DNA from: Salaquimonas sp.
Lineage (GTDB): Bacteria > Pseudomonadota > Alphaproteobacteria > Rhizobiales > Rhizobiaceae
Direction of reading: 5' to 3'
NCBI GenBank assembly: GCA_028289365.1
Contig: JANQQM010000038.1
Location: forward strand, 51,115 to 115,114
DNA length: 64,000 nucleotides
The notes beneath the pieces were generated by a model. It worked only from the letters and a program-made list of their open reading frames with translations, had not been told where the DNA came from and made no database searches. Position 1 is the stretch's first letter; the number at the start of each line of letters is the position of its first letter. The position numbers were made by a program, and so were the translations under genes. Below are positions 17,263-41,541 of this stretch, piece after piece.

Positions 17263-17538
17263 ATCATCGCCTGCCGGCGCTGTTGGTAAACTTGTGGTTT
17301 TGATGTTACAGGCTTGGTTAGCCTGGTTGTATCAAGCAGGAATGCTACCAAAATTGCGCGTAAAGCGATAGCAATTATCGCTAAAATCCAGTAGTGTGAA
17401 ATCGGTGAGACGCGGCCCTGACGGCTAGTTCGTTCTTGTATTGCGGGCCAAGAATCGCAGAAATTGCGGGGAATTTGTGCATTGAATTCGCTGGAACCAG
17501 GGATACCACGGCAAAATCTGCCTGCCGAGGCCGGTGGC

Positions 17539-19842
17539 ATGTATCAGCCCCCCTCGCCCTATATGCATTCCCAACCCTATCCTGGTTATGCTCCGCCAGA
17601 AGCGGAAGAAGAAAACGGTTTTGATCCGCTAAAACTGCTTTGGTTTGTGGTTCATTACCGGTGGCTAATCGCGGTTTGTCTTATCGTCGGCCTGATCAGC
17701 GGCGTGGTGCTGACCATGCTGCAGACACCGCTTTATCGTGCTGCTGCAAATCTTGAGATTGTGACAACAGGCGCCAAAGTTATCCAGGACCTTGAAGCCG
17801 TTGTGCAGACGAGCGACATGCGTACGTTCGAGAATGCACGCGTAAAGATGAAGAGCCGCGACCTGGCGCGCCGCGTGGTCTACGAGTTAAATCTGAGTGA
17901 AGACGAGACATTCCTTGCGCCTACCCCGACTTTCTCCCTGAGCAATCTGATAAACCGGGCGCTTGGAACCAGCCGGGAGGCAGACATAGAAGGGCTAACC
18001 CCGGAACAACGGGAAGCGCGGGCTGTCGGACTTGTCCAGGCAAATCTTGCCATCGCCCTTGTCCGAAACACATCGATCCTGAATATCAGCTTTAGCCACG
18101 CTTCGCCTGAGCATGCGGCCATGGTCGCAAATCAGGTAGCGCGGAGCTATATCGATCAAACGGTCGACAAAACCAGCGAAACCTCGGATCTAGCCAGGCA
18201 GTTCATCCAGGAGCAGGTGATTGAAACCAAGGCCAAATTACAGGAATCCGAAGCAGCACTTGTTGCTTATGCAAAAGAAGCCGGAATTACAGTTACCGGA
18301 AGCGACGCCTCCCTGATTTCGGAAAACATATCGAAGATCAATGCCGCCCTTGGCCAGGCAATTCAGGACCGTCTCGATGCGCAACGCGATGTCGAACAGG
18401 TGCGGGCAGGAAATGCCGGCTCGCTGCCTCAGGTATTCGAGAGCGAGTCCATCCAGACAACCAAACAGAAAATTGCCGAATTGAGAGCCACCTACCAGGA
18501 AAAGCTCAATACGCTGAAACCTGGTTTTCCCGAGATGATCAGGCTCAGTTCGCAAATAGGTGAGTTGCAAAAGCAGGTGGATGCAGAAGTCGCGTCTATC
18601 GCTCGTGCAGTGGAAATCAAGTTTGAACAATCCAAGGAAAAGGAAACAGCACTCAAGGAAGAATTGGCGCAGCTGGAAGCTGAACAAAGCACCTTTCAGG
18701 ACAAAAATATCCAATACACGATCCTGAAGCGCGAGGTCGATTCAAATCGCTCGCAATATGACACATTGATCAACAAGTTGAATGAAGTTGGTGTGGGGTC
18801 GGAGCTACGCTCAAGCAATGCCTCCATCGTAGATTTGGCAGTTATGCCGGGCAGGCCTTACACACCAAACATGAACAGAAACCTGATGCTTGCAATGGTT
18901 CTGTTTGCTGCTTTTGCGGCTGGCATTATCTACCTGCTTGAACTGATGAATAATACATTTGCTGTACCTGACCAGATCGAATCCGAGCTTAAACTCCCTG
19001 TCCTGGGCGTAATCCCGTTCGTAGATCAGGAAGAGCTCCATAATGCATTTTCCGACAATAAATCGTCTGTATCGGAAGCATATCGATCGCTTCGAACGTC
19101 GATCCAGTTCACTGGAACCGAAAATGCGATGCGGACGATATTGGTGACATCATCAGAACCGTCGGAAGGCAAGTCATCAACGGCCTACAAGCTGGCTTGC
19201 GACTTTGCAGCATTGGGAAAACGTGTTCTGATTGTCGATGCGGACTTGAGAAAACCGCGAATGCACCGGATTTTCAATATTTCCAACACGATGGGGCTTA
19301 GCAACCTGCTTTCAAATGTTGTTCGAAAAGGCGATGTCAGTTCACTATTCCAGGTCACATCTGTACCTAACGTAACGGTGCTATCTTCGGGGACAATTCC
19401 GCCTAACCCGGTCGACCTGCTCATGTCTTCGCGCATGGGTTTGACGCTTAGCTATTGTGCCAAACAATATGATCTGGTGATCGTCGATTCACCCCCTGTC
19501 ATGGGACTGTCGGACTCGCCAATTCTGAGTCGCCAAATGGATGCAACCTTGCTTGTTGTGGCAGCGAAACAGGTAACCCGCAAGGCTGCCAAAACAGCGC
19601 TTGCCAGATTAAATGCGGCGGGCGGGAATGTTGTAGGCGCTGCGTTTACCCGCTTCGCGGTCGATAAGCTCGACTACAATTACGCCTATCGTTATATGCA
19701 ATATAACTATTACAGCTATGACACCAATCCTGCACAGCTGGAGAACCATGCTACACAAAACGCAAATGCGCCCGCTCCAAACGTCAGGCGCACTGGTCCT
19801 GTTGCTGCTTTGTTTGATCGCTTCATGCCTGGTCCTTCTTGA
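17539..19842 (+). CDS. Polysaccharide co-polymerase PCP-2a with C-terminal tyrosine autokinase (Wzc/ExoP-like), copy 1
   Basis: ATG 17539 is preceded by GAGG. It has two TM segments flanking a long coiled-coil region. Kinase motifs are Walker A SEPSEGKSSTAYKLA, VLIVDADLRKP and DLVIVDSPPV. The Tyr cluster is DYNYAYRYMQYNYYSYD. Confidence 0.9.
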   Translation: MYQPPSPYMHSQPYPGYAPPEAEEENGFDPLKLLWFVVHYRWLIAVCLIVGLISGVVLTMLQTPLYRAAANLEIVTTGAKVIQDLEAVVQTSDMRTFENARVKMKSRDLARRVVYELNLSEDETFLAPTPTFSLSNLINRALGTSREADIEGLTPEQREARAVGLVQANLAIALVRNTSILNISFSHASPEHAAMVANQVARSYIDQTVDKTSETSDLARQFIQEQVIETKAKLQESEAALVAYAKEAGITVTGSDASLISENISKINAALGQAIQDRLDAQRDVEQVRAGNAGSLPQVFESESIQTTKQKIAELRATYQEKLNTLKPGFPEMIRLSSQIGELQKQVDAEVASIARAVEIKFEQSKEKETALKEELAQLEAEQSTFQDKNIQYTILKREVDSNRSQYDTLINKLNEVGVGSELRSSNASIVDLAVMPGRPYTPNMNRNLMLAMVLFAAFAAGIIYLLELMNNTFAVPDQIESELKLPVLGVIPFVDQEELHNAFSDNKSSVSEAYRSLRTSIQFTGTENAMRTILVTSSEPSEGKSSTAYKLACDFAALGKRVLIVDADLRKPRMHRIFNISNTMGLSNLLSNVVRKGDVSSLFQVTSVPNVTVLSSGTIPPNPVDLLMSSRMGLTLSYCAKQYDLVIVDSPPVMGLSDSPILSRQMDATLLVVAAKQVTRKAAKTALARLNAAGGNVVGAAFTRFAVDKLDYNYAYRYMQYNYYSYDTNPAQLENHATQNANAPAPNVRRTGPVAALFDRFMPGPS

Positions 19843-22365: not shown

Positions 22366-23475
22366 TTATTGCAGGCCCTTGATTGCAGCGAGGTTTCTGC
22401 TCAGGAATTGCCTGATCCGCATTGGCGAAAGAAGCCCGGACAAGAATTGGCGACGGGCGGCAGGACCGCTGGACAATCTTCCCCATATCCACGCAAAAAT
22501 GGAAGCCAGCATGGCTAATCGGTGCCGACCTGGTTCGGCTGTCAGATCAAGCGTCGTTTGTACCCAATTTTCTGCTTCAACGCTCGTTGAATCTATTGGA
22601 TTTTCTGCCTCAAGCACATTGCAAGACAATTCAATAAATGACTGAAAATATTGTGATAATTCTGCTTCATCAAATCTGGCGGACGCTTCCAGAATCCCGT
22701 CTTTCCCGAACTTCGCAAACATTCTTGCATAGTCCGCGACATCGCGAAGCAAGACCAGATTTGAGGAATACCGGCCGCTATCGATCTGCGCGTGGCTGAC
22801 AAGATGGCATATGCGATCGACGGGCGCCGGTGCCCTCAAAGCCGGATCAAGGCCGGATACGGCATTTTGAAATAGTTCCTGCGGCGGAAGAATTCCCAAG
22901 GCCGGACTGGCGGAGGCGGCAGTATGCAACTCGATCGCGGTAAGTTCACCGGCACGCCAAAGTGCCGGCGCATGCCGCATGGTGCGATCATAGGCAAGAT
23001 CATCATCGGTATAGCCATTGGATTTCAGGATATTTATTGCCTCATCAATCCGGTCTTCAGGCACCAGGACGTCCAGATCACTCAAGATGCGGTCTGCGGG
23101 ATCATCGTAGATTGGAGTAACAAATTCCGTGGCCCCCTTTAGTGCAATGGTCGGAATTCCATCACGCTGAAGCAGGTTTGAAGCTTCCGTCAATTGATCT
23201 GCGAGCCGTTTGTTGCGCTCCCGGTTCTGCTCACGCAGATGCCGGAAAAACCCCATGACTTCAGGATCAAGGCAATCTGCGATCTGACCGTGTTCAAATG
23301 CCCTGGGGATGAAATTGGCAATTGAGTGCGCCGTCGCCAGCCGAACCAGTTGCTGGGTATCGGCCTTGCGTAGCTCTTCTCGATCTTTGGTGTCGATCGA
23401 GTTTCCCAATGCGCTACGCATTAGAACAAGAAGGCATTTTACAGAATGGCGACGCATTTTCCGGCTTGATGTCAT
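22366..23475 (-). CDS. NTP_transf_5-type nucleotidyltransferase-fold protein, copy 1
   Basis: ATG at complement 23475 forms an ATGA overlap with the stop of the upstream kinase gene. The motif region is LLQRDGIPTIALKGATEFVTPIYDDPADRILSDLDVLVPEDRIDEAINILKSNGY. Confidence 0.75.
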   Translation of the reverse strand: MTSSRKMRRHSVKCLLVLMRSALGNSIDTKDREELRKADTQQLVRLATAHSIANFIPRAFEHGQIADCLDPEVMGFFRHLREQNRERNKRLADQLTEASNLLQRDGIPTIALKGATEFVTPIYDDPADRILSDLDVLVPEDRIDEAINILKSNGYTDDDLAYDRTMRHAPALWRAGELTAIELHTAASASPALGILPPQELFQNAVSGLDPALRAPAPVDRICHLVSHAQIDSGRYSSNLVLLRDVADYARMFAKFGKDGILEASARFDEAELSQYFQSFIELSCNVLEAENPIDSTSVEAENWVQTTLDLTAEPGRHRLAMLASIFAWIWGRLSSGPAARRQFLSGLLSPMRIRQFLSRNLAAIKGLQ

Positions 23476-24599
23476 GCCACCAATTCCTGCAGAACCGCTG
23501 CGGCATCTTCGCCGGTCCCGTACCTGAATGAAAATGCCGGAATGTTCTGACACAAGCCAACCATTGACCGGATGCTGTTATTGTGTCCGCAAGCCCGGCT
23601 GCCAGCTGCAGTCAGCCGGTGGAGGGCTTCAAGCTCATCGATTTGGGTCAAATTCGAGCCGTCAAATTCTGCTCGAAATTCCGGAAAGCAAAGATGGGTG
23701 GCTTTGTGCCAGCTCTGATCCGAATTAGCCTGCCAATAGCGAAAACCATATTCATCGGCATCCGGCAAAGGTGGATGTCCATTGTCTTTCAATTGCCGAT
23801 CCAGGATCTCGTGGCTACCCGATTTGATGCTGATATTTGCAGATAATCCAAACACGTAGCCGCCGCTCGACGATAGCGCAATCAGATCATCGCCCAGATA
23901 GGTTCCTCCCGTCATTACAAGTTGCGCCATTAATGTCGACTTGCCCGAACCGCTGGTACCGGAAAGAAGCAAGGTGCCCTGCCCCAGGCGGACCGCACTT
24001 GCGTGTAGTACAGCACCTACCTCACCGGGCCCCAAAGCGGTCTCCAGCAATGCCTGCAAAAACATGTGGCGACAGCCGGCAAAATCCTCACAGGACCAGT
24101 AGTGTTTGCCGTTCACCGCGACGAGAAAACTTCCATCGGTCGCAATCAGATCAACAACATCGGAAACTGCATCGTCCTCGTCATCCGTCAGAAGCGGTTC
24201 GAGGAGCCGGTGCAATACGGAACCGGCGGCCAAATCGTTACACCGAACAAAGACCGTGTTTTCGCCCAGTTTGATGCAATGGTTCCAGCAAAATTTGCCT
24301 TGCAGTCTTGCACCAGCCAGTAGCGTCACATGTTTGCCTGAGAACAGTCCGGCATCCGTCCAATGAGCCAGCATGGCATCAAAATCTGTTTCGACCCTGG
24401 CGCGATCCTGCTCCAACAACCGGGAAAGCCGTTCCACAGCTTGTGCCTTGTCGGCGGATTGCTGATAGGCAGCCAACATCAGCCGCGCGGTTTCGTTCAA
24501 AAGGACGATTGAACCATTTTCGGTCGAGTGGCCGATTGTATGACCACCAAAGGGCACCAGCTCTATGGCCTGTGCACTGGATTGCCGCTGATCAGACAT
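23472..24599 (-). CDS. PqqD/RRE-like domain fused to an HPr-kinase-C-like P-loop kinase (HprK-related kinase), copy 1
   Basis: The N-terminal SIVLLNETARLMLAAYQQ...DFDAMLAHWTDAGLF is PqqD-like. The C-terminal LHASAVRLGQGTLLLSGTSGSGKSTLMAQLVMTGGTYLGDDL is an HprK-type P-loop followed by an acidic motif. I chose ATG at complement 24599; a TTG at 24653 is also possible. Confidence 0.75.
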   Translation of the reverse strand: MSDQRQSSAQAIELVPFGGHTIGHSTENGSIVLLNETARLMLAAYQQSADKAQAVERLSRLLEQDRARVETDFDAMLAHWTDAGLFSGKHVTLLAGARLQGKFCWNHCIKLGENTVFVRCNDLAAGSVLHRLLEPLLTDDEDDAVSDVVDLIATDGSFLVAVNGKHYWSCEDFAGCRHMFLQALLETALGPGEVGAVLHASAVRLGQGTLLLSGTSGSGKSTLMAQLVMTGGTYLGDDLIALSSSGGYVFGLSANISIKSGSHEILDRQLKDNGHPPLPDADEYGFRYWQANSDQSWHKATHLCFPEFRAEFDGSNLTQIDELEALHRLTAAGSRACGHNNSIRSMVGLCQNIPAFSFRYGTGEDAAAVLQELVA

Positions 24600-24752
24600 T
24601 GCATCACCGAGTTTGGTAAGACTGGCCTCTAAAGACAAAGCCAATTCGGCCAAAACCGTTTATCAAACCGGTTGATCAGTCCCCTCAATTACGGGATTTG
24701 GCCCAGAATCGACCATAGGTTCGATATGGTTAATGAACTCTTTACAAACGTC

Positions 24753-27170
24753 CTAGGCTGCCCTGGTCTGGCGCTTTTGCGGCCGTTCGGAATTGCCCTT
24801 GGTTTCAGATGCAGGCGTCAGTTTCTGTGCGGTGTATTGTACTGCACCGGAAAAGCCGTTTCGAATGAGCTGCAGATCCCGTTCCAGCCAAGGCGCGTAA
24901 TGCTTGACAGTTCCGGCAGGCGGCGTTTCCACGGTCTCGTCGTGGCTATAGGTCAGATGACGATAGGCATAGGCATAGCTGAGGCGCTCCATGGAGAGGC
25001 ATGTCAGCGCTGCGCCGACTACATTGGCTCCCGCCATGTCCAATCTGGCCAAAGCAGCCTTTGCCGACTTGCGCGTCACCGATTTGGAGGAGACGACCAG
25101 CATGGTCGCATCGACCTGACCGCTCAGGATTTGGGCGTCTGCCAGATCGAGAATTGGCGGACTGTCGATGATAATCAGGTCGAAATATCTCGAACAACAC
25201 CTTAGTAGTGCACCCATTTTCGACGACGACAGCAGGTCAGCCGGATTTGGTGGTGGTGTCCCGGCTGACAGGAAGGTAACGCCCGGGAATTTCGTGCGCT
25301 GGAACAGGTCCAGCACCTGACTTTCATCAATCACATTGGACAGAAGGTTGCTAAGACCCGGACCCTCAGACGCCGAATAGATTTCATGAAGCCGCGGTTT
25401 GCGAAGATCGGCATCGATGACCAGCACGCGGCGACCAAGCGCAGCAAAATCCTGGGCGAGCTTGTAAACCGTTGTCGACTTGCCTTCGCCCGGCTGTGAT
25501 GATGTCACCAACAGGCTTTTTACGTCCTGTTCAACACCAGTAAAGCGCAGGGAAGATCGAAGGCTGCTGTAATTCTCAGAAATCTTGGATCGTGGGTTTT
25601 CCAGATCCTTGATCAAGGTTTCCTCATCGTTTTCGGGAATGGTTCCAAGAACCGGCAGTTTCAGTTCGGATTCCACACGTTCAGGTGTATCGAACTTGTT
25701 GCTGATCAACTCGATCAGGTAGATCAATGCTGCGCAAAGTGCTCCGAAAAATACCAATGCCATCAACATGTTACGTTCAAGGCGCGGTGTAAACGGCGCA
25801 CCCGGCGTGCGTGCATAGTCGATAATCGAGGCGTTGGTGTTCTTGAGTTCGGAACCAATGCCTACTTCGCTCAATTGAGCAATCAGCTGATCATATTGGG
25901 TGCGGTTTGAGTCCACCTCGCGCTTGAGGATCGTGTACTGGATATTCTTGTCCTGGAATTCCCGCTGTTTGGTTTCCAGCTCACCCAGTGCCCGGCGGAT
26001 ACTCTCTTCCTTCTGTGCTGCCAGTCCGGCCCGTGTTTCGACCGTTGCACCAATCGTGGCAGTCTCTTCCTTGATCTGACGCTGCAATTCCCTGATTTGT
26101 GCCTGGATCTTGCGCATTTCAGGATGATCGGGTTTCAGGGTGCTGCGCTTTTCTTCATAACCAGCCCTGAGCTCGGCAATTTTCTGCTTGGTGGTCTGAA
26201 TTGTCTCGCTCTCATAGACGGCCGGCAGGGATGTGATCTTGCCTGCGTTTGCCTGCTCCAGGTCGCGATCGGCAGCCAACCGTTCCTGAATTGCTTCGGC
26301 AAGCGCTTCATTTAGTTGCCCGATATTGTCTACAATCAACGAGGCATCATTTCCGGTGATGGTAATATTTTGCGCCTTTGCGTAGTTTACGAGCGCCTTT
26401 TCCGAATTTTGAAGCTTTGCCTTAGCTTCAACCACGCGCTGGTTAAGAAATTGACGTGCGAGATCGGAAGATTCACTCGTTTTATCAACGGTATAGTCGA
26501 TATAGCTACGCATCGCCTGATTGGCGACGAGTGCCGTGTATTTGGGGACTTCATGCGTAAACGAGACCCGGATAACGGAGCTGTCGCGGATGATGCTGAC
26601 GGACAATCCGCCACGGACGAGACCTACAGCCGCAGCTTCCCGTTCTTCTTTGGTCCAATCTGCCAGGCTGTTTTCCGATTCAGCACCAAATGCACGATCG
26701 ACCAGGTTCATCAGAGAAAATCCCGGCTTTGGCGCAATGAATGCGTCTTCATCGCCAAGGTTCAATTCGTGAACGATGCGCCGCGCAATATCTTCGCTTT
26801 CAAACTTGATGATCACATTTTCCATCGCGGAAAAGCGATCATATTGCGAAACGACTTCAAATTCCTCGAAGACCCGCGGCGTTGGGGTCTGGATTTCGAG
26901 ACGTGCTGAAGCACTATAGAGCGGCGTCTGCGACCAAGTATTAATTAGTCCGGCCGATATGCCGAGAATTACAAACCCCAGGATCAACCAACGATATTGG
27001 ATAGCATAGGAAATCAGCTTCAGCGGATCGAAACCAAATCCATCGTCTGCGATATCGTCTTGCATACGCGAGGTACGCCCGTTGTTTGACTGCAAGCCCT
27101 GCAGTTCCGACAGCGTCAGCATTACACATGGTTCTTCTTTCATGTGGCTGCCTGTATTGATCAAATTCAT
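24753..27170 (-). CDS. Polysaccharide co-polymerase PCP-2a with C-terminal tyrosine autokinase, copy 2
   Basis: 805 aa and clearly paralogous to copy 1 (FDPLKL, DKNIQYTILKREVDSNRTQYD, ESELKLPVLG). Kinase motifs are Walker A SQPGEGKSTTVYKLA, VLVIDADLRKP and DLIIIDSPPI. The Tyr patch SYAYAYRHLTYSHD is shorter and is followed by a long non-Tyr tail. Confidence 0.9.
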   Translation of the reverse strand: MNLINTGSHMKEEPCVMLTLSELQGLQSNNGRTSRMQDDIADDGFGFDPLKLISYAIQYRWLILGFVILGISAGLINTWSQTPLYSASARLEIQTPTPRVFEEFEVVSQYDRFSAMENVIIKFESEDIARRIVHELNLGDEDAFIAPKPGFSLMNLVDRAFGAESENSLADWTKEEREAAAVGLVRGGLSVSIIRDSSVIRVSFTHEVPKYTALVANQAMRSYIDYTVDKTSESSDLARQFLNQRVVEAKAKLQNSEKALVNYAKAQNITITGNDASLIVDNIGQLNEALAEAIQERLAADRDLEQANAGKITSLPAVYESETIQTTKQKIAELRAGYEEKRSTLKPDHPEMRKIQAQIRELQRQIKEETATIGATVETRAGLAAQKEESIRRALGELETKQREFQDKNIQYTILKREVDSNRTQYDQLIAQLSEVGIGSELKNTNASIIDYARTPGAPFTPRLERNMLMALVFFGALCAALIYLIELISNKFDTPERVESELKLPVLGTIPENDEETLIKDLENPRSKISENYSSLRSSLRFTGVEQDVKSLLVTSSQPGEGKSTTVYKLAQDFAALGRRVLVIDADLRKPRLHEIYSASEGPGLSNLLSNVIDESQVLDLFQRTKFPGVTFLSAGTPPPNPADLLSSSKMGALLRCCSRYFDLIIIDSPPILDLADAQILSGQVDATMLVVSSKSVTRKSAKAALARLDMAGANVVGAALTCLSMERLSYAYAYRHLTYSHDETVETPPAGTVKHYAPWLERDLQLIRNGFSGAVQYTAQKLTPASETKGNSERPQKRQTRAA

Positions 27171-27457: not shown

Positions 27458-27556
27458 ATGATCTTGTTGATACAACCATTAATACGTTCAGTTTTTATCT
27501 CTGCGCGACTATGGTTATCTTCACGTACCGGGCTTACAAAAAAAGAATGCGAAAAA

Positions 27557-27871
27557 ATGTCCCGCGCCTACTTTGAAGATTTATTAAGTGACCCGAGATG
27601 GACGAGCGAAGAAAGAGCGTTCATTGAATTTGTTTGCGGGCCAACACCTTTCATTGTCGAATTTCTAGATAGCGAGCTGAAAAAGGAACGCATTACTGAA
27701 ATCAAGGACTGGTGCACCGAGAAATATGGTGACCCGTCCGATCCGTTCCGCGGTAAAACCGGTGATTGGCGGATTTGCTCAATTTCGGACCAAAAATCGA
27801 TCTGTTTTCGGCTTGAGGAACAATTGTCCGATTTCCTGACCTATCGAAAGAAACTTAAACAATATTCATGA
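27557..27871 (+). CDS. Hypothetical small protein
   Basis: About 104 aa from ATG 27557 (ORF track TTG at 27458). It is A+T-rich, has no recognised motif and no clear RBS. Confidence 0.35.
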   Translation: MSRAYFEDLLSDPRWTSEERAFIEFVCGPTPFIVEFLDSELKKERITEIKDWCTEKYGDPSDPFRGKTGDWRICSISDQKSICFRLEEQLSDFLTYRKKLKQYS

Positions 27872-28009: not shown

Positions 28010-28975
28010 ATGGTCTCGGTTGCACAAAGGCTTCAGCAAATGCCTAGATTTTCGTTATCCGCGAAATGGCATACGCCATGCTATGAGAAACTCTCCGCGC
28101 TCGAATGGACCAGCGGATTTTCGATTGCCTCCCATGGCGTCAGGATTGGGGTGCGGACGTCCGATCCGTCTATTGTCCCGATTTTGAAGGACAGCCTTCC
28201 AGCCAGTTGTGAACTGTGCGAGGCGGAAGCCGTTGATACGGTATTGTCAGTCGTATTGGGGGGGCGGGATAAAAAAACACGGACCCGCCGGTACCACCTG
28301 GTCTATCATAATCATTCGGTATTCTCGCGCTCGCATCGGCTTGAGGAAATCATTGACGGTTTCAAATCCTGTCTTGCAATGAACCTGGCGACATTGGCGA
28401 GGCGCCGTGTTTTCATTCATGCCGGTGCTGTTGGCTGGCAGGGCAAGGCAATTGTCTTTCCCGGTAAATCCTATAGCGGCAAGAGCACCTTGGTGCTGGA
28501 ACTGATCAAGGCCGGGGCGAGCTATCTTTCCGATGAATTTGCAGTGCTGGATTTCAAGGGCCGGGTTCACCCCTATCCCAAACCAATCTCCCTGCGTAAG
28601 ACAGCCAACGGCAAACAAATGGACGTGTCGATTTCGTCTATTGGCGGAACGACGGCAGATGCTCCGTTAACATTGGGGCTCGTTGTGGACACGCAGTTTC
28701 AGCCCAATGCGCTCTGGCTCCCCCGGATGCTTTCACCCGGCGAAGGATTGCTTTCGCTCCTGGCGAATTGCGCAGCCGCAAGATATGCGCCGGAGCGCTG
28801 CCTGCGGGCTATGGAACGGGCGTCACAAAACGCACAGTTCATTGCCTCACCGCGCGAGGAAGCAGCCAGCGTGGTGCCGGAGATATTGGATCTATTGCGT
28901 ACCGAAACAGAAACTGACGAATTCGCCGGTGTTGTTCAAGGTTCCGCGGAAAGCGCTCATTCCCTGGGATTGTGA
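28010..28975 (+). CDS. HPr-kinase-C-like P-loop kinase (HprK-related kinase), copy 2
   Basis: 321 aa. IHAGAVGWQGKAIVFPGKSYSGKSTLVLELIKAGASYLSDEFAVLD aligns with the copy 1 kinase core. Confidence 0.75.
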   Translation: MVSVAQRLQQMPRFSLSAKWHTPCYEKLSALEWTSGFSIASHGVRIGVRTSDPSIVPILKDSLPASCELCEAEAVDTVLSVVLGGRDKKTRTRRYHLVYHNHSVFSRSHRLEEIIDGFKSCLAMNLATLARRRVFIHAGAVGWQGKAIVFPGKSYSGKSTLVLELIKAGASYLSDEFAVLDFKGRVHPYPKPISLRKTANGKQMDVSISSIGGTTADAPLTLGLVVDTQFQPNALWLPRMLSPGEGLLSLLANCAAARYAPERCLRAMERASQNAQFIASPREEAASVVPEILDLLRTETETDEFAGVVQGSAESAHSLGL

Positions 28976-29463
28976 TGCCAATGCCATCCGAAATCAGACC
29001 GAAAGCGCGCACTGCTCGCATCGTGGTTCGCGAACTTGGGAGCGAGGTACTGATCTATGATCTGGACAGTCATGATGCGACATGTCTGAACGCAGCGGCA
29101 AGCAAGGTCTGGAAGCTCTGTGACGGTAAGAGAACCATTGGCGAGATATCTGCAGAACTGGAAAATGAGGCGTGCGGTGGCAGTGCCGAAGAAAACGTTT
29201 TGACGGCGTTAGAAAATTTCATTCAGGCGAATCTTCTGGAAGAGGTTCCCGAAATTGAGACGTCAGATGGAGAAAATCGCAGAGATGTTCTTCGTGGGAT
29301 CGTCGCGTCCGCAACCGCCATTCCCCTTGCCACAACCATCTCGGTGCCGGCCATGGCTCAAATCGCTTCGTGTCTTGGCAGGCGCGAACGGTGCAGGCGA
29401 TTTTTCGGTCCGGAATGTTGTCCGGGACTTGAGTGCCGCCGCCGCAGATGCAGACCGGAATGA
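28972..29463 (+). CDS. PqqD/RRE-like domain protein with internal Tat-like signal and C-terminal Arg-rich six-Cys peptide
   Basis: 163 aa. Its start overlaps the kinase stop (GTGATG). The PqqD-like part is ARIVVRELGSEVLIYDLDSHDATCLNAAASKVWKLCDGKRTIGEISAEL. This is followed by NRRDVLRGIVASATAIPLATTISVPAMA, then QIASCLGRRERCRRFFGPECCPGLECRRRRCRPE. Confidence 0.7.
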   Translation: MMPMPSEIRPKARTARIVVRELGSEVLIYDLDSHDATCLNAAASKVWKLCDGKRTIGEISAELENEACGGSAEENVLTALENFIQANLLEEVPEIETSDGENRRDVLRGIVASATAIPLATTISVPAMAQIASCLGRRERCRRFFGPECCPGLECRRRRCRPE

Positions 29464-29499
29464 CAACAAGGACATGCGAGACCTGCCTTGATCGCCCCA

Positions 29500-30630
29500 A
29501 TGCCAAATGACCCGAAATATACCAATGCTCAGATCATCGCGGAGCTGCTGTCCGGCGCATGGCGAAATGAAGTGGATCCGGCGTGGATTTCTCCCGAAGC
29601 ACTGCATGACATCCACCCGATTGTCCTTTCGACCGGCGCAGGCCCCTTATGCTGGCGGCGCATCGAAACCGTGCCCGAATTGCGGGAGACGGATGCCGGT
29701 CAACTTTTGCGTAAAAGCTATCTGATGACTGCCCTTCGCGGCCAAATGCTTGAGGAAACGCTTGAGCGCATTTGCGAGGTGCTTGACGAGTTCGAGGTCA
29801 TCCCTTTGATCTTCAAGGGTTGGTCAGTTGCACAATATTATGGTGATCCTGATTTACGCCCGTTTGGCGACATCGATCTTTGTGCTCCGCCAGATCGCTA
29901 TTTAGAGACCGCAGGTTACCTTTCACAATACGCGACAACACCACCAGATGGCGGCCGCAAGCGGCAGTTTGTTCCCGGCAAGAAAACCACAGTGTTTGGG
30001 TTTGACTGCGAATTACCGGGAAATGTAACCCAGATAGATCTGCATCGCGATCTTCAGCGCTTTCGATTTGATCAGCTTGAAGCGGTCTATGCGCGTTCTC
30101 GACTGATTCCAGTCAAGTCCCGCCAAATCCGGGTGCTGTCACCGGAAGATCATTTGCGGCTGCTTTGCCTGCATTTTCTCGACCATGGTGGCTGGCGACC
30201 AATCTGGCTCTGCGATATTGCCGCATTGCTCGAGGCACTGCCCGATGATTTCGATTGGGATCTCTGTCTCGGCGACGATCCCCTCACCCGTCATTGGGTG
30301 GAGATCGCGGTCGCGCTGGCCTGTCAACTTTTATGCGCTAATCCCAAAACCAGGCCTCAATTGCCGGCTTTGCCCTCCTGGCTAATCACCGAAGTTCTGG
30401 AACAGTGGCGCCGTCCGTTTGAGGCCCATATGCCCCGAACGAGATTTTTGCAGGTGCTTTTGCATTATCCGCTTGAGATAGTTTCTGAAGCTGCGGCTCG
30501 CTGGCCAAACAAGATCAGGGCAACTTGTGCAACAAAATCCAGGTTCGACGATAGACCGCGCTGGCCATATCAGCTATCTGAATTTTCTCGGCGTGCTTTC
30601 TCCTTTTTTGAGCTATCGGGTGCGCGCTGA
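29500..30630 (+). CDS. NTP_transf_5-type nucleotidyltransferase-fold protein, copy 2
   Basis: ATG at 29500 (ORF track TTG at 29488). The motif region is LDEFEVIPLIFKGWSVAQYYGDPDLRPFGDIDLCAPPDRYLETAGYL. Confidence 0.75.
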   Translation: MPNDPKYTNAQIIAELLSGAWRNEVDPAWISPEALHDIHPIVLSTGAGPLCWRRIETVPELRETDAGQLLRKSYLMTALRGQMLEETLERICEVLDEFEVIPLIFKGWSVAQYYGDPDLRPFGDIDLCAPPDRYLETAGYLSQYATTPPDGGRKRQFVPGKKTTVFGFDCELPGNVTQIDLHRDLQRFRFDQLEAVYARSRLIPVKSRQIRVLSPEDHLRLLCLHFLDHGGWRPIWLCDIAALLEALPDDFDWDLCLGDDPLTRHWVEIAVALACQLLCANPKTRPQLPALPSWLITEVLEQWRRPFEAHMPRTRFLQVLLHYPLEIVSEAAARWPNKIRATCATKSRFDDRPRWPYQLSEFSRRAFSFFELSGAR

Positions 30631-39325: not shown

Positions 39326-39705
39326 TTATAGATATTGAAAATACAAAAGACAGATGATTGAATTCAAGAAATACAAATGGGCTCACCCAAAGCCAATTGA
39401 TCCATGTTGCTAGTATGGGTTTAGACCAGACACGGAACTTTATCTTTAATCATCTTGTAATAAGGGAACATGCAAATTCGATGCTGGCGCATATTTGCTA
39501 AGTAGCAGTTTCAAAGCTGAATATAGGACAATCGATAGAATAAAATCTCTTCTGGAAATTAAATTTTTGAAATCGCTATTTGAAACGTAAATAAAATTTA
39601 AAAATTCTTGGAAATTTCAATAGTTAATAATTAAAAATTATTCCGATCTGAAATTTGAACGGTTCATTGTGTTGTCAAAGACTAAACGAGAACTCTAAGA
39701 AACTG

Positions 39706-41541
39706 ATGTGTGGCATCAACGGCATCTTTGCCTACCATTATGCGGCAAATCCGGTAGATCGTTCCGAGCTTTTGCGTACTCGCGACCACATGGCTGCACG
39801 TGGACCAGATGGAAAGGGTGAGTGGATTGCAAATGACGGCCGTGTCGGCTTCGGTCATAGGCGCCTTGCAATAATTGACCTCACCGATGGCGGCGCCCAG
39901 CCGATGGCCAGCGACGATGGTTCACTAATCATTACCTTCAACGGCGAAATCTACAATTACCGAGAACTTCGCCAAGATCTCGAGGCCGAGGGTCATGTCT
40001 TTCGAAGCAACTCTGATACCGAGGTCCTTCTGCATCTTTATGCTGTAAAAGGCGAGGCAATGGTCCACGAATTGCGCGGTATGTTCGCCTTCGCGATCTG
40101 GAATAACAAGCGTGGCGAAGTGTTTCTGGCGCGAGATCCTTACGGCATCAAGCCCCTCTATTATGCCGATGATGGCTGGACGCTGCGCTTTGCATCCTCC
40201 GTCAAGGCTTTGATGGCAGGCGGCCGTATATCGACCGATCCCGAACCGGCCGGTTGGGTTGGCTTCTACTTATTCGGCAGCGTACCGGAGCCCTTTACCA
40301 CCTATCGAGAAGTGCGCGCGCTTCCCGCCGGCGCAACACTCCTCGTAGATGCACAGGGCCCGCAAATGCCGCACCGCTATTTCTCGATTGCCGCGATCTG
40401 CGCGCAGTCGGACGGTGAGTTGGCGACTTCTTACAAAGTACACAACGCGCAGAAACAAACGCGCGCTGCACTCATAGACAGCGTGCGCGCTCACCTGGTA
40501 GCGGATGTCCCGGTTGGCGCATTCCTGTCTGCAGGTATCGATTCAGGTGCGCTAGTTGGCTTGATGCGCGACGTAGGGCAAGAAGATGTCACTACAGTAA
40601 CGTTAGCGTTTGATGAGTTTGAGGGTCAGCATGATGATGAAGCGCCAATAGCTGCAGAGGTTGCCCACCATTTTGGCACACGCCATCATCGACGACTGGT
40701 GACAGAACGCGAGTTTCAAGACGATCTGCCGCTAATTCTGGAAGCAATGGACCAGCCCAGTATTGACGGCCTTAACTCCTGGTTTGTAAGCAAAGCGGCA
40801 CGGGAGCTGGGTCTGAAGGTCGCGATTTCCGGACTCGGCGGCGATGAATTGTTCGGTGGCTACCCCTCCTTTAGCGATATCCCCCGTTGGCACCGTCTGC
40901 TAGCGGTTCCTTCGCGCATGCCGTTCCTGGGCGAGGCCGCACGTTGGGCAATAACGGCGGGGCGTACCTTTTGGCCCGGGTTGAACCCCAAGAGCGCGGG
41001 CCTCATTAAATATGGTGGCAGCTTTGCAGGAGGATATCTCTTGCGGCGCGGTTTGTTTATGCCTTGGGAGTTGGAAATGGTCATGGACCCCGCCATGGCA
41101 CGCGATGGTCTACAACGACTAGAGCCGCTTCACCATATCCGACAGGCTTTGGACCCAATGCCGCAGTCGAGTTTTGCAAAGGTAGCGACACTCGAGGCCT
41201 CGCTTTATATGCGAAACCAATTACTCCGTGACACCGACTGGGCCAGCATGGCCCATTCGCTGGAAGTCCGAGTACCACTCGTCGACAGTCATCTTCTGGT
41301 GACCCTAAATGCTGCCCGTCGCGCCGCAGGCGGCCTTGACGGCAAGACTATTCTGGCCATGAGCCCCGCAAAATCCTTGCCGGACACGGTGATACATCGC
41401 CTCAAGACAGGATTCACGACGCCGATCGCGACCTGGTTGCAACGGGATAAACGGGCAGAACGCTGGAAGAAAAGGTCGTCCCTAACATCGTCCTATTGCC
41501 CATGGGCCCGACGCTGGGCTTATAGTGTAGGGGCAGCGTGA
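39706..41541 (+). CDS. asnB: Asparagine synthase (glutamine-hydrolysing) family amidotransferase
   Basis: The start was set at ATG 39706 so that Cys2 is the Ntn nucleophile (MCGINGIF). It has GHRRLAIIDL, the FNGEIYNY GATase region, and the synthetase PP-loop-like LSAGIDSG. Confidence 0.85.
   Translation: MCGINGIFAYHYAANPVDRSELLRTRDHMAARGPDGKGEWIANDGRVGFGHRRLAIIDLTDGGAQPMASDDGSLIITFNGEIYNYRELRQDLEAEGHVFRSNSDTEVLLHLYAVKGEAMVHELRGMFAFAIWNNKRGEVFLARDPYGIKPLYYADDGWTLRFASSVKALMAGGRISTDPEPAGWVGFYLFGSVPEPFTTYREVRALPAGATLLVDAQGPQMPHRYFSIAAICAQSDGELATSYKVHNAQKQTRAALIDSVRAHLVADVPVGAFLSAGIDSGALVGLMRDVGQEDVTTVTLAFDEFEGQHDDEAPIAAEVAHHFGTRHHRRLVTEREFQDDLPLILEAMDQPSIDGLNSWFVSKAARELGLKVAISGLGGDELFGGYPSFSDIPRWHRLLAVPSRMPFLGEAARWAITAGRTFWPGLNPKSAGLIKYGGSFAGGYLLRRGLFMPWELEMVMDPAMARDGLQRLEPLHHIRQALDPMPQSSFAKVATLEASLYMRNQLLRDTDWASMAHSLEVRVPLVDSHLLVTLNAARRAAGGLDGKTILAMSPAKSLPDTVIHRLKTGFTTPIATWLQRDKRAERWKKRSSLTSSYCPWARRWAYSVGAA

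What the first reader, a model, noticed from the sequence alone, without database searches (positions are those of the whole stretch)
29272..29463. Internal Tat-like signal followed by a 34-aa Arg-rich six-cysteine peptide with knottin-type spacing, fused to the RRE domain
In the direct translation, residues 102-129 are NRRDVLRGIVASATAIPLATTISVPAMA. This has a twin-Arg, a hydrophobic core and AxA, so it looks like a Tat-type signal, yet it lies after a PqqD-like domain of about 95 aa. The final 34 residues are QIASCLGRRERCRRFFGPECCPGLECRRRRCRPE, giving C-x6-C-x7-CC-x4-C-x4-C with 10 Arg and 4 Glu. That spacing falls within the inhibitor-cystine-knot consensus of eukaryotic knottin and defensin-like peptides. 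RRE domains normally bind a separately encoded precursor; here the candidate cargo is attached in cis. I know of no characterised system with this architecture. The product could be a secreted, modified cationic peptide with an antimicrobial, signalling or matrix-binding role.
Basis: seen in the sequence. Interest (0 to 1): 0.85.

Follow-up and report, generated by a model that had tools for sequence, protein, structure and literature searches.

The report
RRE-fused, signal-bearing bacterial knottin-like precursor
This gene is a real member of a large, apparently undescribed bacterial family whose proteins combine a peptide-binding (PqqD/RRE) domain, an internal twin-arginine export-type signal and a small, variable six-cysteine tail predicted to fold like spider or cone-snail knottin toxins.

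Summary
ORF 28972..29463 (+) encodes 163 aa in three parts. The first is a PqqD/RRE domain: Pfam scores above threshold, and the AlphaFold model superposes on the lasso RRE TbiB1. The second is N-RR-DVLR, a 21-aa moderately hydrophobic stretch and AMA. The third is a 34-aa tail with spacing C6C7CC4C4C.

It is neither a frameshift nor a one-off. An exhaustive profile search gave 947 cluster representatives at E<=1e-30. The listed ones are mostly 155-230 aa and match full length. RR is present in 152/155. [STN]RRxΦΦ is present in 142/152. RR lies a fixed 32 residues before Cys1, and an A-x-A type site precedes [S/T]-C.

Tail Cys counts are even in 149/152, and non-Cys tail positions are hypervariable. 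The tail profile hits only ICK toxins in the PDB (E down to 1e-6). The predicted fold matches ICK structures (TM 0.78).

An HprK-like kinase is adjacent in 11 of 20 relatives' loci, and an NTP_transf_5 gene in 6.

Most likely this is a cis-RRE precursor whose knottin-like tail is exported, cleaved and possibly phospho-modified. Export, cleavage and modification are inferred, not shown. I found no paper describing this architecture. The Arg-rich charge is peculiar to this clade.

The parts
28972..29463 (+). Whole ORF, 163 aa (162 aa if started at ATG 28975): RRE domain, linker, Tat-like signal and Cys-knot tail
   Evidence: The identical gene is in an independent assembly, L002.
28999..29241 (+). 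PqqD/RRE domain, residues 10-90 (three strands 17-22, 25-30, 35-39; three helices 41-49, 56-64, 72-85)
   Evidence: Pfam PF05402 scores 31.7 bits against GA 23.4. AlphaFold pLDDT is above 90. Foldseek matches TbiB1, lasso B1 and PqqD.
29242..29274 (+). Acidic, poorly conserved linker (residues 91-101)
   Evidence: Residues 91-100 have mean pairwise identity 0.12, against 0.45 for the RRE. The model has low pLDDT here.
29275..29358 (+). Tat-type signal-like segment, residues 102-129: N-R103-R104-D-V-L-R, h-region GIVASATAIPLATTISVPAMA, predicted signal peptidase site AMA|Q
   Evidence: Family motif statistics. The 21-aa uncharged stretch has mean Kyte-Doolittle 1.48, and the best 19-aa window is 1.56. 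P118 and P126 are at least 90% conserved. TAT HMMs are only sub-threshold on relatives.
29359..29460 (+). 34-aa core/tail QIASCLGRRERCRRFFGPECCPGLECRRRRCRPE, a six-Cys knottin-like mini-domain. S133 is its only hydroxyl residue
   Evidence: Cys columns are conserved. The tail profile hits only ICK toxins in the PDB. The AlphaFold tail model has pLDDT 84.8, and its top Foldseek hits are ICK toxins with TM 0.7-0.78.
28010..28975 (+). HprK-like P-loop kinase (321 aa), translationally coupled to the precursor gene
   Evidence: TIGR04352 scores 58.6 bits (cutoff 200) and TIGR00679 gives a weak hit. Homologues lie beside the family gene in 11 of 20 other loci.
29488..30630 (+). NTP_transf_5 (PF14907) nucleotidyltransferase-family protein (376-380 aa), 25-60 nt downstream
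   Evidence: Pfam scores 107 bits. It is the commonest Pfam among neighbours. It is present in L001, L003, L012, L015, L020 and L028.
27458..27871 (+). Conserved small ORF of unknown function upstream of the kinase (137 aa by ORF scan, 104 aa as called)
   Evidence: A 54% identical homologue sits in the same position in L001. It has no Pfam or NCBIfam hit.
23472..24653 (-). Second, divergent cassette: PqqD domain fused to an HprK-like kinase (393 aa), with no Cys tail
   Evidence: Pfam PqqD scores 27.1 bits and there is a P-loop. TIGR04352 scores 51.9 bits. It is only distantly related to the first cassette.
22366..23553 (-). Second NTP_transf_5 gene (395 aa), partner of the PqqD-kinase fusion
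   Evidence: Pfam scores 109 bits. It is a distant paralogue of 29488..30630.

Best explanation
The gene encodes a three-part precursor from a large, uncharacterised bacterial family.

**Shown (computationally).** There is an N-terminal RRE/PqqD fold. It is followed by a position-specifically conserved segment with the twin-arginine signal consensus, a moderately hydrophobic h-region and an A-x-A type site. The protein ends in a hypervariable tail on a conserved, even-numbered Cys framework that is predicted to adopt an inhibitor-cystine-knot fold.

**Inferred mechanism.** The RRE domain stays in the cytoplasm. The signal-like segment inserts N-in/C-out, probably through Tat. Signal peptidase I cuts after AMA129, and a roughly 4.09 kDa three-disulfide mini-protein is released into the periplasm or beyond.

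The cis-RRE would play the role that a separate RRE plays in RiPP pathways. It could hold its own leader/signal strand (the model has a beta-strand at 120-124). It could also dock the translationally coupled HprK-like kinase, so that the core is modified before export. The most plausible modification is phosphorylation, possibly followed by NTP_transf_5-dependent glycosylation. This follows the analogy of the lasso peptides paeninodin and pseudomycoidin. S133 is the only hydroxyl residue in this core.

The biological role of the mature knot is unknown. Options include a toxin or bacteriocin, a protease inhibitor, or an EPS/matrix-associated factor. In this window the cassette sits inside a polysaccharide export locus.
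For: **RRE.**

**Family size and full-length conservation.** There are 9717 hits at E<=1e-3 and 947 at E<=1e-30. Most of the 150 listed are 155-230 aa and nearly all match the full profile.

**Signal segment.**
- RR is present in 152/155.
- [STN]RRxΦΦ is present in 142/152.
- The RR-to-Cys1 distance has median 32 (IQR 32-33).
- The c-region is P(-8), A(-5), x, A(-3), [A/S/G](-2), [S/T](-1), C.
- The segment is as conserved as the RRE (pairwise identity 0.43 against 0.45), while the linker is 0.12. This implies a specific binding constraint, not only generic hydrophobicity.
- The h-region here has Kyte-Doolittle 1.48-1.56, below the classical TM-anchor level.

**Disulfide signature.** Tail Cys number is even in 149/152. 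CC adjacency occurs in 69/80 six-Cys tails. The modal framework is C6C5CC3C4C.

**Knottin.** The PDB profile hits are exclusively ICK toxins, with E 1.1e-6 and 2.9e-6 at the top. The predicted tail fold matches ICK structures at TM 0.77-0.78 and rmsd 1.4 A over all 33 residues.

**Released-product logic.**
- Non-Cys tail positions are only 24% identical.
- Tandem paralogue arrays occur in L003, L008, L013 and L019.
- L014 has repeated knots.
- Some variants have a PT-HINT autoprocessing domain fused directly after the knot.

**Enzyme partnership.**
- The HprK-like gene is adjacent in 11/20 loci and is often immediately upstream.
- NTP_transf_5 is adjacent in 6/20.
- Stop and start overlap here.
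- A paralogous cassette in the same window has the RRE fused to the kinase.

**Precedents.**
- HPr-kinase homologues phosphorylate lasso precursors, and a nucleotidyltransferase adds hexose to the phosphate (PMC8498205).
- Bufferins are RiPPs exported through a Sec signal and cut at the signal peptidase site (PMC11626156).
Against: - No experiment shows export, cleavage, disulfides or any modification.
- The Tat HMMs do not reach threshold: TIGR01409 scores 14.3-14.6 against 16.7, and PF10518 scores 18.2 against 22.7, on relatives only. This protein gives no hit.
- I know of no precedent for a Tat signal placed after a folded soluble domain. The known internal Tat signals follow Sec-inserted helices (PMC3471235, PMC5449189).
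- Small disulfide peptides would normally be Sec cargo.
- The signal segment has low model confidence (pLDDT 58-67). I could not inspect coordinates, so docking of the strand on the RRE and the disulfide connectivity are both unverified.
- Foldseek E-values for the 33-residue query are not significant (0.47 and above), and AlphaFold may be biased towards known ICK folds.
- Curated knottin Pfam models are below threshold (Toxin_7 scores 17.5 against 27).
- Nine of 20 loci show no kinase within the sequence held, and one member sits alone in an integrase/ParA region. Modification is therefore not obligatory.
- The lasso kinases target a C-terminal Ser, which this family lacks.
Confidence: 0.55

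Rival explanations
1. This is an uncleaved type II (N-in/C-out) single-pass membrane protein. The hydrophobic segment is a signal-anchor and the RR is positive-inside charge. The cytoplasmic PqqD domain scaffolds or regulates the HprK-like kinase and NTP_transf_5 at the membrane of the polysaccharide machinery. The small Cys knot is an extracytoplasmic sensor or anchoring knob.
For: The family's uncharged stretch has median length 21 and mean Kyte-Doolittle 1.84, which could span a membrane. EPS-locus context recurs: the window, L020 with Wzy_C and Poly_export, and L016 with Wzc. The fusion is always kept, and apparent stand-alone forms were fragments or miscalls.
Against: RR is invariant rather than any basic pair, and the S/T-RR-x-Φ-Φ-K/R context and A-x-A c-region with Pro at -8 are conserved. 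These are signal-peptide features, not anchor features. This protein's h-region is below the usual TM threshold. AlphaFold does not model the segment as a helix. Hypervariable tails, tandem paralogue arrays, repeated knots and PT-HINT fusions fit released effectors better than sensors.
Confidence: 0.2
2. This is an unmodified secreted Cys-knot bacteriocin, toxin or protease inhibitor. The PqqD-like domain is only an intramolecular export chaperone (pro-domain) that binds its own signal peptide until the protein is ready for export, in the way Tat proofreading chaperones do. The neighbouring kinase and nucleotidyltransferase would then act on something else, such as the polysaccharide or other proteins.
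For: The family gene occurs without a kinase or NTase in 9 of 20 loci, including a mobile-element-like region. The signal segment is conserved position by position and is modelled as a strand. Peptidase_C25 genes lie beside family genes in L025/L026 and L027, and once among the neighbour ORFs scanned.
Against: The HprK-like gene is the most consistent neighbour and is translationally coupled here. RRE-kinase fusion in the second cassette argues that the RRE and kinase work together. Many of the 'solitary' loci are short contigs.
Confidence: 0.17
3. This is a cytoplasmic protein. The hydrophobic segment is only an RRE-bound leader-like strand, and the Cys-rich tail is a metal-binding or enzymatically cross-linked (RiPP-type) core that is never exported by Sec or Tat.
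For: The model has a strand at 120-124 and no TM helix. RRE domains bind leaders as an added strand, as in the TbiB1 complexes that are the best structural matches.
Against: Even Cys counts in 149/152, the CC framework and the ICK-type profile and fold matches point to disulfides, meaning an oxidising compartment. No radical-SAM, YcaO, MNIO or other Cys-modifying enzyme recurs among neighbours. The Tat/AxA consensus would be unexplained.
Confidence: 0.06
4. This is an artefact: a frameshift or misassembly joining a PqqD gene to a separate small secreted-peptide gene, or a lasso-peptide cluster fragment.
For: None was found.
Against: The fusion is conserved in hundreds of divergent sequences and in an independent assembly. 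Internal initiation is not general, and this gene has GAA at the candidate codon. No lasso cyclase or B2 protease is adjacent. The AsnB homologue 10 kb away scores as an asparagine synthase or EPS amidotransferase, and its lasso-cyclase score is 181.8 against a cutoff of 525.
Confidence: 0.02

Closest known systems
Lasso-peptide tailoring set: B1 (PqqD-type RRE), HPr-kinase homologue and nucleotidyltransferase (paeninodin, pseudomycoidin)
   Same: The same three protein types are clustered. The best structural matches of the N-domain are lasso B1 RREs in complex with their leaders. The kinase phosphorylates the precursor, and the nucleotidyltransferase adds hexose to the phosphate (PMC8498205).
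   Different: There is no lasso cyclase, B2 protease or short A peptide. The RRE is fused to the presumed substrate. The core is a six-Cys knot with a signal peptide, not a macrolactam lasso, and there is no C-terminal Ser. The kinase scores far below NCBIfam cutoffs.
Bufferins and other signal-peptide-bearing RiPPs (BufA with a Sec signal, plus an MNIO enzyme and an RRE-containing partner)
   Same: Both are Cys-containing mini-protein precursors. Export uses the general machinery, with cleavage at the signal peptidase site. The signal may overlap with the leader (PMC11626156).
   Different: The bufferin signal is N-terminal and Sec-type, and the RRE is on a separate protein. The modification is thiooxazole formation by MNIO, and no such enzyme is present here.
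Internal twin-arginine signals of dual Sec/Tat membrane proteins (actinobacterial Rieske proteins and others)
   Same: A twin-arginine signal-like helix is not at the N-terminus, and the C-terminal domain is translocated (PMC3471235, PMC5449189, PMC7317946).
   Different: Those signals follow Sec-inserted transmembrane helices, are not cleaved, and carry cofactor-containing domains. Here the signal follows a soluble folded domain, has an A-x-A site, and carries a 30-aa disulfide knot.
Animal inhibitor-cystine-knot toxins (spider, cone snail, remipede Xt3a)
   Same: The framework is C-x6-C-x5-7-CC-x3-4-C-x4-C, including a (D/Q)CCSG-x-C motif. A conserved pre/pro region is paired with a hypervariable mature peptide. 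The profile and predicted fold match.
   Different: This is a bacterial family. The pro-region is an RRE fold and the signal is Tat-like and internal. Homology as opposed to convergence is not established. Curated Pfam toxin models are sub-threshold. The KNOTTIN database mentions 'bacterial knottins' only as modelled sequences without experimental structures (PMC5753296).
Borosins (core peptide fused in cis to its own processing domain). This rests on my own knowledge; the paper PMC8429565 was listed.
   Same: The substrate and the recognition or processing module are on one polypeptide.
   Different: In borosins the fused module is the catalytic methyltransferase and there is no export signal. 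Here the fused module is a non-catalytic RRE.
Tat proofreading chaperones (TorD, DmsD, NapD). This rests on my own knowledge.
   Same: These are small cytoplasmic proteins that bind a Tat signal peptide until the cargo is ready. The cis-RRE could do the same.
   Different: They have unrelated folds, are encoded separately and serve cofactor enzymes. No evidence here goes beyond the modelled strand at 120-124.

Membership tests
PqqD / RiPP recognition element (PF05402) | Sequence match to the curated model above the gathering score | tested here: met
   Scores 31.7 bits against 23.4, over residues 25-88.
PqqD / RiPP recognition element (PF05402) | Winged helix-turn-helix fold: a three-stranded sheet plus three helices, superposable on solved RREs | tested here: met
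   AlphaFold pLDDT is above 90. Foldseek to TbiB1 5v1u/5v1v gives E 2.4e-4 to 9.4e-4, TM 0.79-0.81 and rmsd 1.8-2.0 A. Lasso B1 (6jx3) and PqqD (5sxy) also match.
PqqD / RiPP recognition element (PF05402) | Binds a leader peptide as an added strand next to beta-3 | tested here: inconclusive
Twin-arginine (Tat) signal peptide | S/T-R-R-x-F-L-K-type motif with near-invariant RR | tested here: met
   This protein has N-R-R-D-V-L-R. In the family, RR is present in 152/155, [STN]RRxΦΦ in 142/152, and 105/152 also have K/R. The consensus is as given in PMC7317946.
Twin-arginine (Tat) signal peptide | h-region of at least 12 residues with moderate hydrophobicity, then a c-region with A-x-A | tested here: met
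   This protein has 21 uncharged residues with Kyte-Doolittle 1.48, then A-M-A. A small-x-small site is present in 148/152 family members.
Twin-arginine (Tat) signal peptide | Located at the N-terminus of the precursor | tested here: not met
   It starts at residue 102, after a folded domain. Internal translation start is rejected.
Twin-arginine (Tat) signal peptide | Reaches the cutoff of TIGR01409 or PF10518 | tested here: not met
   This protein gives no hit. Relatives score 14.3-14.6 against 16.7, and 18.2 against 22.7.
Twin-arginine (Tat) signal peptide | Tat-dependent export and cleavage | not testable with these tools
   This needs tatC and RR-to-KK genetics and mass spectrometry. TatP and SignalP were not available.
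Inhibitor cystine knot (knottin) | Six Cys with ICK-type loop lengths and a CC doublet at III-IV | tested here: met
   Spacing is 6,7,0,4,4 here. The family mode is 6,5,0,3,4, and CC occurs in 69/80. The published loop ranges are quoted from memory.
Inhibitor cystine knot (knottin) | Match to a curated knottin family model above threshold | tested here: not met
   Toxin_7 scores 17.5 bits against 27. Other toxin families are weaker.
Inhibitor cystine knot (knottin) | Similarity to solved ICK structures | tested here: met
   All top hits of the tail profile in the PDB are ICK toxins, with E from 1.1e-6 up to about 1e-2. The predicted fold gives TM 0.77-0.78 and rmsd 1.4 A against 5epm_C and 2mxm, although Foldseek E is 0.47 or more.
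Inhibitor cystine knot (knottin) | I-IV, II-V, III-VI disulfides with the third threading the ring | not testable with these tools
This needs NMR or partial-reduction mass spectrometry.
RiPP precursor / biosynthetic cluster | Conserved leader with hypervariable core | tested here: met
   Pairwise identity is 0.45 for the RRE, 0.43 for the signal and 0.24 for non-Cys tail positions.
RiPP precursor / biosynthetic cluster | Co-located tailoring enzymes acting on the core | tested here: inconclusive
   An HprK-like gene is adjacent in 11/20 loci and NTP_transf_5 in 6/20. Activity is untested.
Lasso peptide cluster | Asn-synthetase-like cyclase and transglutaminase-like B2 protease beside the RRE | tested here: not met
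   No such genes lie in 22-31 kb. The AsnB at 39655 scores 181.8 against 525 for the lasso cyclase model.
HprK-related kinase A system (TIGR04352) | Kinase reaches the equivalog cutoff | tested here: not met
   Scores are 58.6 and 51.9 bits against a cutoff of 200. The protein is only a distant relative.

The most novel reading that the evidence does not exclude
These proteins define a new class of ribosomal peptide products. In this class a knottin-type mini-protein is made as a fusion to its own RRE. It is tagged by an HprK-like kinase (with or without a nucleotidyltransferase) that the cis-RRE recruits. It is then exported through an internal, cleavable twin-arginine signal that doubles as the RRE-bound leader. 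That would be both the first biosynthetic logic of this kind and the first characterised bacterial cystine-knot peptide family. It is widespread in Acidobacteriota, Chloroflexota, Actinomycetota and Alphaproteobacteria.
Probability: 0.3. Interest if true: 0.88.

Novelty: new variant of a known kind. Interest (0 to 1): 0.72.

Why it matters
If the inferred route is right, bacteria make disulfide-knotted mini-proteins of the type known from animal venoms and plant defence.

- **Scale.** The family is large. It has 947 clusters at 50% identity with E<=1e-30, and soil lineages are prominent.
- **Natural-product library.** The hypervariable loops on a fixed scaffold amount to a ready-made library of stable peptides for discovery and engineering.
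- **RiPP logic.** The architecture would extend RiPP logic to a recognition element fused in cis to its substrate.
- **Tat biology.** It would also extend Tat biology to a cleavable signal placed after a folded soluble domain.
- **Function of the recurrent gene set.** It gives a concrete candidate substrate for the PqqD / HprK-like kinase / PF14907 set. In this window that set occurs twice within a polysaccharide export locus, and its function is unknown outside lasso peptides.
- **Testability.** Each step can be tested directly with a roughly 4.09 kDa mass target and a single candidate phospho-site (S133).

Tried and rejected
- **Frameshift or misassembly.** Rejected.
- **Internal translation start** just before RR, making a normal N-terminal Tat pre-peptide. 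The -2 residue is often M/L/V/I. However, the codons are start-type in only about half of 19 loci, there is no consistent Shine-Dalgarno sequence, and this gene has GAA there. Rejected.
- **Stand-alone signal-plus-knot genes lacking the RRE.** A profile search with signal plus tail returned only 49-116 aa proteins. Those listed (16 of 34) mostly carry the end of the RRE domain, one lies at a contig edge (L028), and one is a miscall of a full in-frame fusion (L027). No evidence for separate genes.
- **Lasso cluster.** Rejected, since there is no cyclase or B2 protease.
- **Dedicated models.** TAT and knottin curated HMMs give only sub-threshold hits.
- **Genome scan with the 56-sequence alignment.** It failed because no stretch was conserved enough. 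The 8-sequence alignment worked, but its single pattern found only 13 loci, so the taxonomic picture is a sample, not a census.
- **PDB sequence searches** with the kinase and the NTP_transf_5 protein found nothing.
- **Literature.** Searches for PqqD + HPr kinase + nucleotidyltransferase, bacterial knottin + Tat + RiPP, RRE fused to precursor, PF14907 and 'HprK-related kinase' found no description of this architecture. Source names are only 'hypothetical protein'.
- **Model coordinates.** I could not obtain them, so strand docking and disulfide pairing were not checked.
Full report
**1. What is in the sequence**

The ORF scan and raw sequence show a 163-codon ORF at 28972..29463 on the + strand. 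It starts at GTG 28972, or more probably at ATG 28975. That ATG shares one base with the TGA stop of the upstream gene at 28973-28975, which suggests translational coupling.

- Residues 102-129 are NRRDVLRGIVASATAIPLATTISVPAMA.
- Residues 130-163 are QIASCLGRRERCRRFFGPECCPGLECRRRRCRPE.
- Cys sit at 134, 141, 149, 150, 155 and 160, giving spacing 6,7,0,4,4.
- The tail has ten Arg and four Glu.

The stated start coordinate 29272 is codon 101.

**2. The N-terminal domain is an RRE**

Pfam PqqD (PF05402) matches residues 25-88 at 31.7 bits, above the gathering score of 23.4. NCBIfam gives only sub-threshold hits to several PqqD-type chaperones.

I built an AlphaFold2 model from a 56-sequence family alignment. 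It has pLDDT above 90 over residues 10-90, with three strands and three helices. Foldseek against the PDB puts the lasso-peptide RRE TbiB1 in complex with its leader first (E 2.4e-4, target TM 0.79-0.82, rmsd 2.0 A). Another lasso B1, cyanobactin heterocyclase RRE domains and PqqD itself follow.

**3. It is a member of a very large family, not an oddity or an artefact**

The word-indexed search found seven relatives at 34-100% identity, and all keep the same three parts. An exhaustive HMMER search of 1.84 billion cluster representatives with that alignment found:
- 9717 proteins at E<=1e-3
- 5367 at E<=1e-10
- 947 at E<=1e-30

Most of the 150 listed are 155-230 aa, and nearly all match the profile end to end. 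An identical copy is present in an independent Logan assembly. A frameshift or misassembly is therefore excluded.

A limited genome scan placed members in Blastocatellia/Pyrinomonadaceae (Acidobacteriota), Hyphomicrobiales, Chloroflexia and Thermoleophilia/Solirubrobacterales.

The window itself probably comes from an uncultured Hyphomicrobiales alphaproteobacterium. Its MttB protein is 74-77% identical to those of Nitratireductor, Roseitalea, Salaquimonas and Oricola. A Wza-type outer-membrane exporter indicates a diderm.

**4. The middle segment**

Statistics over 152 family members:
- The consensus is G-Φ-[S/T/N]-R-R-[E/Q/D/A]-Φ-Φ-[R/K]-[R/K]-Φ-G.
- RR is present in 152 of 155.
- [STN]RRxΦΦ is present in 142/152.
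- RR lies a fixed 32 residues before the first Cys (IQR 32-33).
- An Ala/Val/Gly-rich uncharged stretch follows (median 21 residues), with two near-invariant prolines.
- The c-region is P(-8)..A(-5)-x-A(-3)-[A/S/G]-[S/T]-C.

This fits the published Tat description (PMC7317946): S-R-R-x-F-L-K, a moderately hydrophobic h-region that is rich in Gly and poor in Leu, and A-x-A. In this protein the h-region has Kyte-Doolittle 1.48, and the best 19-residue window is 1.56, below the classical membrane-anchor level. The early mature part is strongly basic, which disfavours Sec.

Against a simple Tat assignment:
- The dedicated HMMs stay below threshold on relatives and give nothing for this protein.
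- The signal is internal.

Two observations suggest the segment does more than target export. First, it is as conserved as the RRE (pairwise identity 0.43 against 0.45), whereas the linker is 0.12. Second, the model draws residues 120-124 as a beta-strand, not a helix, at low confidence. A leader bound to an RRE would look like this, but I could not inspect coordinates.

An internal start codon that would give an ordinary N-terminal signal is not a general feature and is absent here.

**5. The tail**

Across 56 relatives C141, C149, C155 and C160 are invariant, and C134 and C150 are at least 90% conserved.

Features of the family tails:
- The number of Cys is even in 149 of 152 (mostly 6, then 8, 10, 12, 14). 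This is the signature of disulfide pairing.
- The modal framework is C6C5CC3C4C.
- CC is adjacent in 69 of 80 six-Cys tails.
- Non-Cys positions are only 24% identical.
- Net charge has median 0 (range -6 to +8). The +6 of this protein is a clade peculiarity.

A 28-position profile of 38 tails, searched against all PDB sequences, returns only inhibitor-cystine-knot peptides. The top hits are remipede Xt3a (E 1.1e-6) and Aca toxin 1 (E 2.9e-6). Spider toxins, omega-conotoxins and Dickkopf follow, and a (D/Q)CCSG-x-C motif is shared.

AlphaFold models the tail with pLDDT 80-92 in the full model and 84.8 alone, with the C-terminal hairpin. Foldseek's top hits are ICK toxins with TM 0.77-0.78 and rmsd 1.4 A over all 33 residues. 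The E-values for so short a query are not significant.

Curated knottin Pfam models are sub-threshold. The fold assignment is therefore well supported as a prediction. Family membership by homology and the disulfide connectivity are not established.

**6. Variants that bear on function**

- Some loci carry two to four tandem paralogues with different tails: L003, L008, L013 and L019.
- L014 has repeated knots in one protein.
- P0017 and P0068 (300 aa) have a PT-HINT autoprocessing domain fused directly after the knot, with junction ...C|CFVAGT.

These features fit a released, diversifying peptide better than a sensor or scaffold.

A search with signal plus tail alone gave only short proteins. 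Those examined (16 of the 34 hits) are mostly fragments that still carry the end of the RRE domain, and the two I traced to DNA are a contig-end fragment and a miscall of a full fusion. I found no stand-alone version.

**7. Neighbours**

In the window the gene lies between an HprK-like P-loop kinase and an NTP_transf_5 protein.
- The kinase is at 28010..28975 (TIGR04352 58.6 bits, far below the cutoff of 200).
- The NTP_transf_5 protein is at 29488..30630 (107 bits).
- A conserved unknown ORF lies upstream at 27458..27871.

Among 20 other distinct loci, an HprK-like gene is adjacent in 11, usually immediately upstream. NTP_transf_5 is adjacent in 6. Nothing else recurs comparably. Nine loci show no kinase in the sequence held, and one member sits alone in an integrase/ParA region.

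The window also has a second, very divergent cassette on the other strand. In it the PqqD domain is fused to the kinase (23472..24653), next to another NTP_transf_5 gene (22366..23553).

Both cassettes flank a Wzc-like gene inside a large polysaccharide locus that includes Wza, two Wzc, Wzy_C, sugar-nucleotide enzymes, glycosyltransferases, an AsnB-type amidotransferase and an ABC-2/Wzt exporter. A relative (L020) shows the same trio beside Wzy_C and Wza, and L016 lies near a Wzc gene.

**8. Most likely mechanism**

The modular anatomy, its conservation and the gene partnership are shown computationally. The steps below are inferred.
- The RRE domain remains cytoplasmic.
- The signal-like segment inserts N-in/C-out, probably through Tat.
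- Signal peptidase I cuts after AMA129.
- The knot oxidises outside the cytoplasm, giving a peptide of 4088.94 Da.
- Before export, the cis-RRE holds the leader/signal, recruits the kinase, or both.

By analogy with lasso peptides, the core may be phosphorylated and then glycosylated. In those systems HPr-kinase homologues phosphorylate the precursor, and a nucleotidyltransferase adds hexose to the phosphate (PMC8498205). S133 is the only hydroxyl residue in this core, and S/T occupies that position in 108/152 relatives.

Bufferins show that a RiPP can use the general export signal and signal peptidase (PMC11626156). Internal Tat signals are known only after Sec-inserted helices (PMC3471235, PMC5449189).

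I put 0.55 on this overall route. My confidence is about 0.8 for the three-part anatomy and about 0.35 for kinase or NTase action on the core.

**9. Rivals**

- An uncleaved type II membrane protein that scaffolds the enzymes (0.20).
- An unmodified secreted knot whose RRE is only an intramolecular export chaperone (0.17).
- A cytoplasmic metal-binding or cross-linked protein (0.06).
- An artefact or lasso-cluster fragment (0.02, refuted).

**10. Novelty**

Each module is known, but I found no description of the combination. Full-text searches and two RRE genome-mining papers gave nothing. Source annotations are only 'hypothetical protein'. The KNOTTIN database mentions bacterial knottins only as modelled sequences without experimental structures.

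I rate it a new variant of known kinds, namely RRE-dependent peptide maturation and signal-peptide-exported Cys-rich peptides. There is a substantial chance that it is a new class once the chemistry is known.

Noticed in passing
window 22366..24653 (-): A second, very divergent cassette. A PqqD domain is fused to an HprK-like kinase (393 aa), followed by another NTP_transf_5 gene. There is no Cys-rich tail and no obvious substrate gene.
   Followed up: partly
window 17464..19842 (+) and 24753..27170 (-): Two paralogous Wzc-type proteins (Wzz + GNVR + tyrosine autokinase) in one polysaccharide locus. The second lies between the two PqqD/kinase/NTase cassettes.
   Followed up: no
window 27458..27871 (+): A small ORF upstream of the HprK-like kinase. 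It has a 54% identical homologue in the same position in L001, and no Pfam or NCBIfam match.
   Followed up: partly
P0017 and P0068 (L021 7001-7903, L022 6064-6966): 300-aa family members in which a PT-HINT/Hint autoprocessing domain follows the Cys knot directly (junction C|CFVAGT). This suggests Hint-mediated release or C-terminal activation of the knot.
   Followed up: partly
L003 682-3610; L019 4255-7314; L008 4345-6567; L014 5986-6684: Tandem arrays of two to four family paralogues with different Cys-rich tails (8-24 Cys in some members). One protein has repeated GGCxCxTGSDCCSSACV modules.
   Followed up: partly
L025 3157-4020, L026 932-2020, L027 4391-7363: Peptidase_C25 (gingipain-family) genes lie next to family genes in Acidobacteria-type loci. 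In L027 a large CarboxypepD_reg/DUF4214 protein is also adjacent. This could hint at a protease-inhibitor or processing relationship.
   Followed up: no
L023 175-672 / L024 4984-5481: A family member with no kinase or NTase nearby, sitting beside a phage-type integrase, ParA and many small unknown ORFs. This is a possible mobile element.
   Followed up: no
L027 3730-4207: The public gene call (68 aa, P0160) truncates a full in-frame RRE-signal-knot ORF. Short database entries of this family are often miscalls or contig-end fragments.
   Followed up: yes
window residues C38 and C50 of the ORF (29083-29085, 29119-29121): The cytoplasmic RRE domain itself carries a near-invariant Cys (C50, at least 90% conserved) and a frequent second Cys in the A-H-C-L-N motif (C38). 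Their role is unknown.
   Followed up: no
window 39655..41541 (+): An AsnB-type amidotransferase. It scores above cutoff for asparagine synthase, and below cutoff for the XrtA/PEP-CTERM amidotransferase and for the lasso cyclase. It is most likely a polysaccharide-modifying enzyme, not a lasso cyclase.
   Followed up: partly
window 2292..3968 (-), 4171..5511 (+), 5569..6690 (-): An MttB-family methyltransferase whose closest named relatives are Hyphomicrobiales (74-77% identity), a sulfotransferase-domain protein, and a baeRF (bacterial eRF1-like) family protein.
   Followed up: partly
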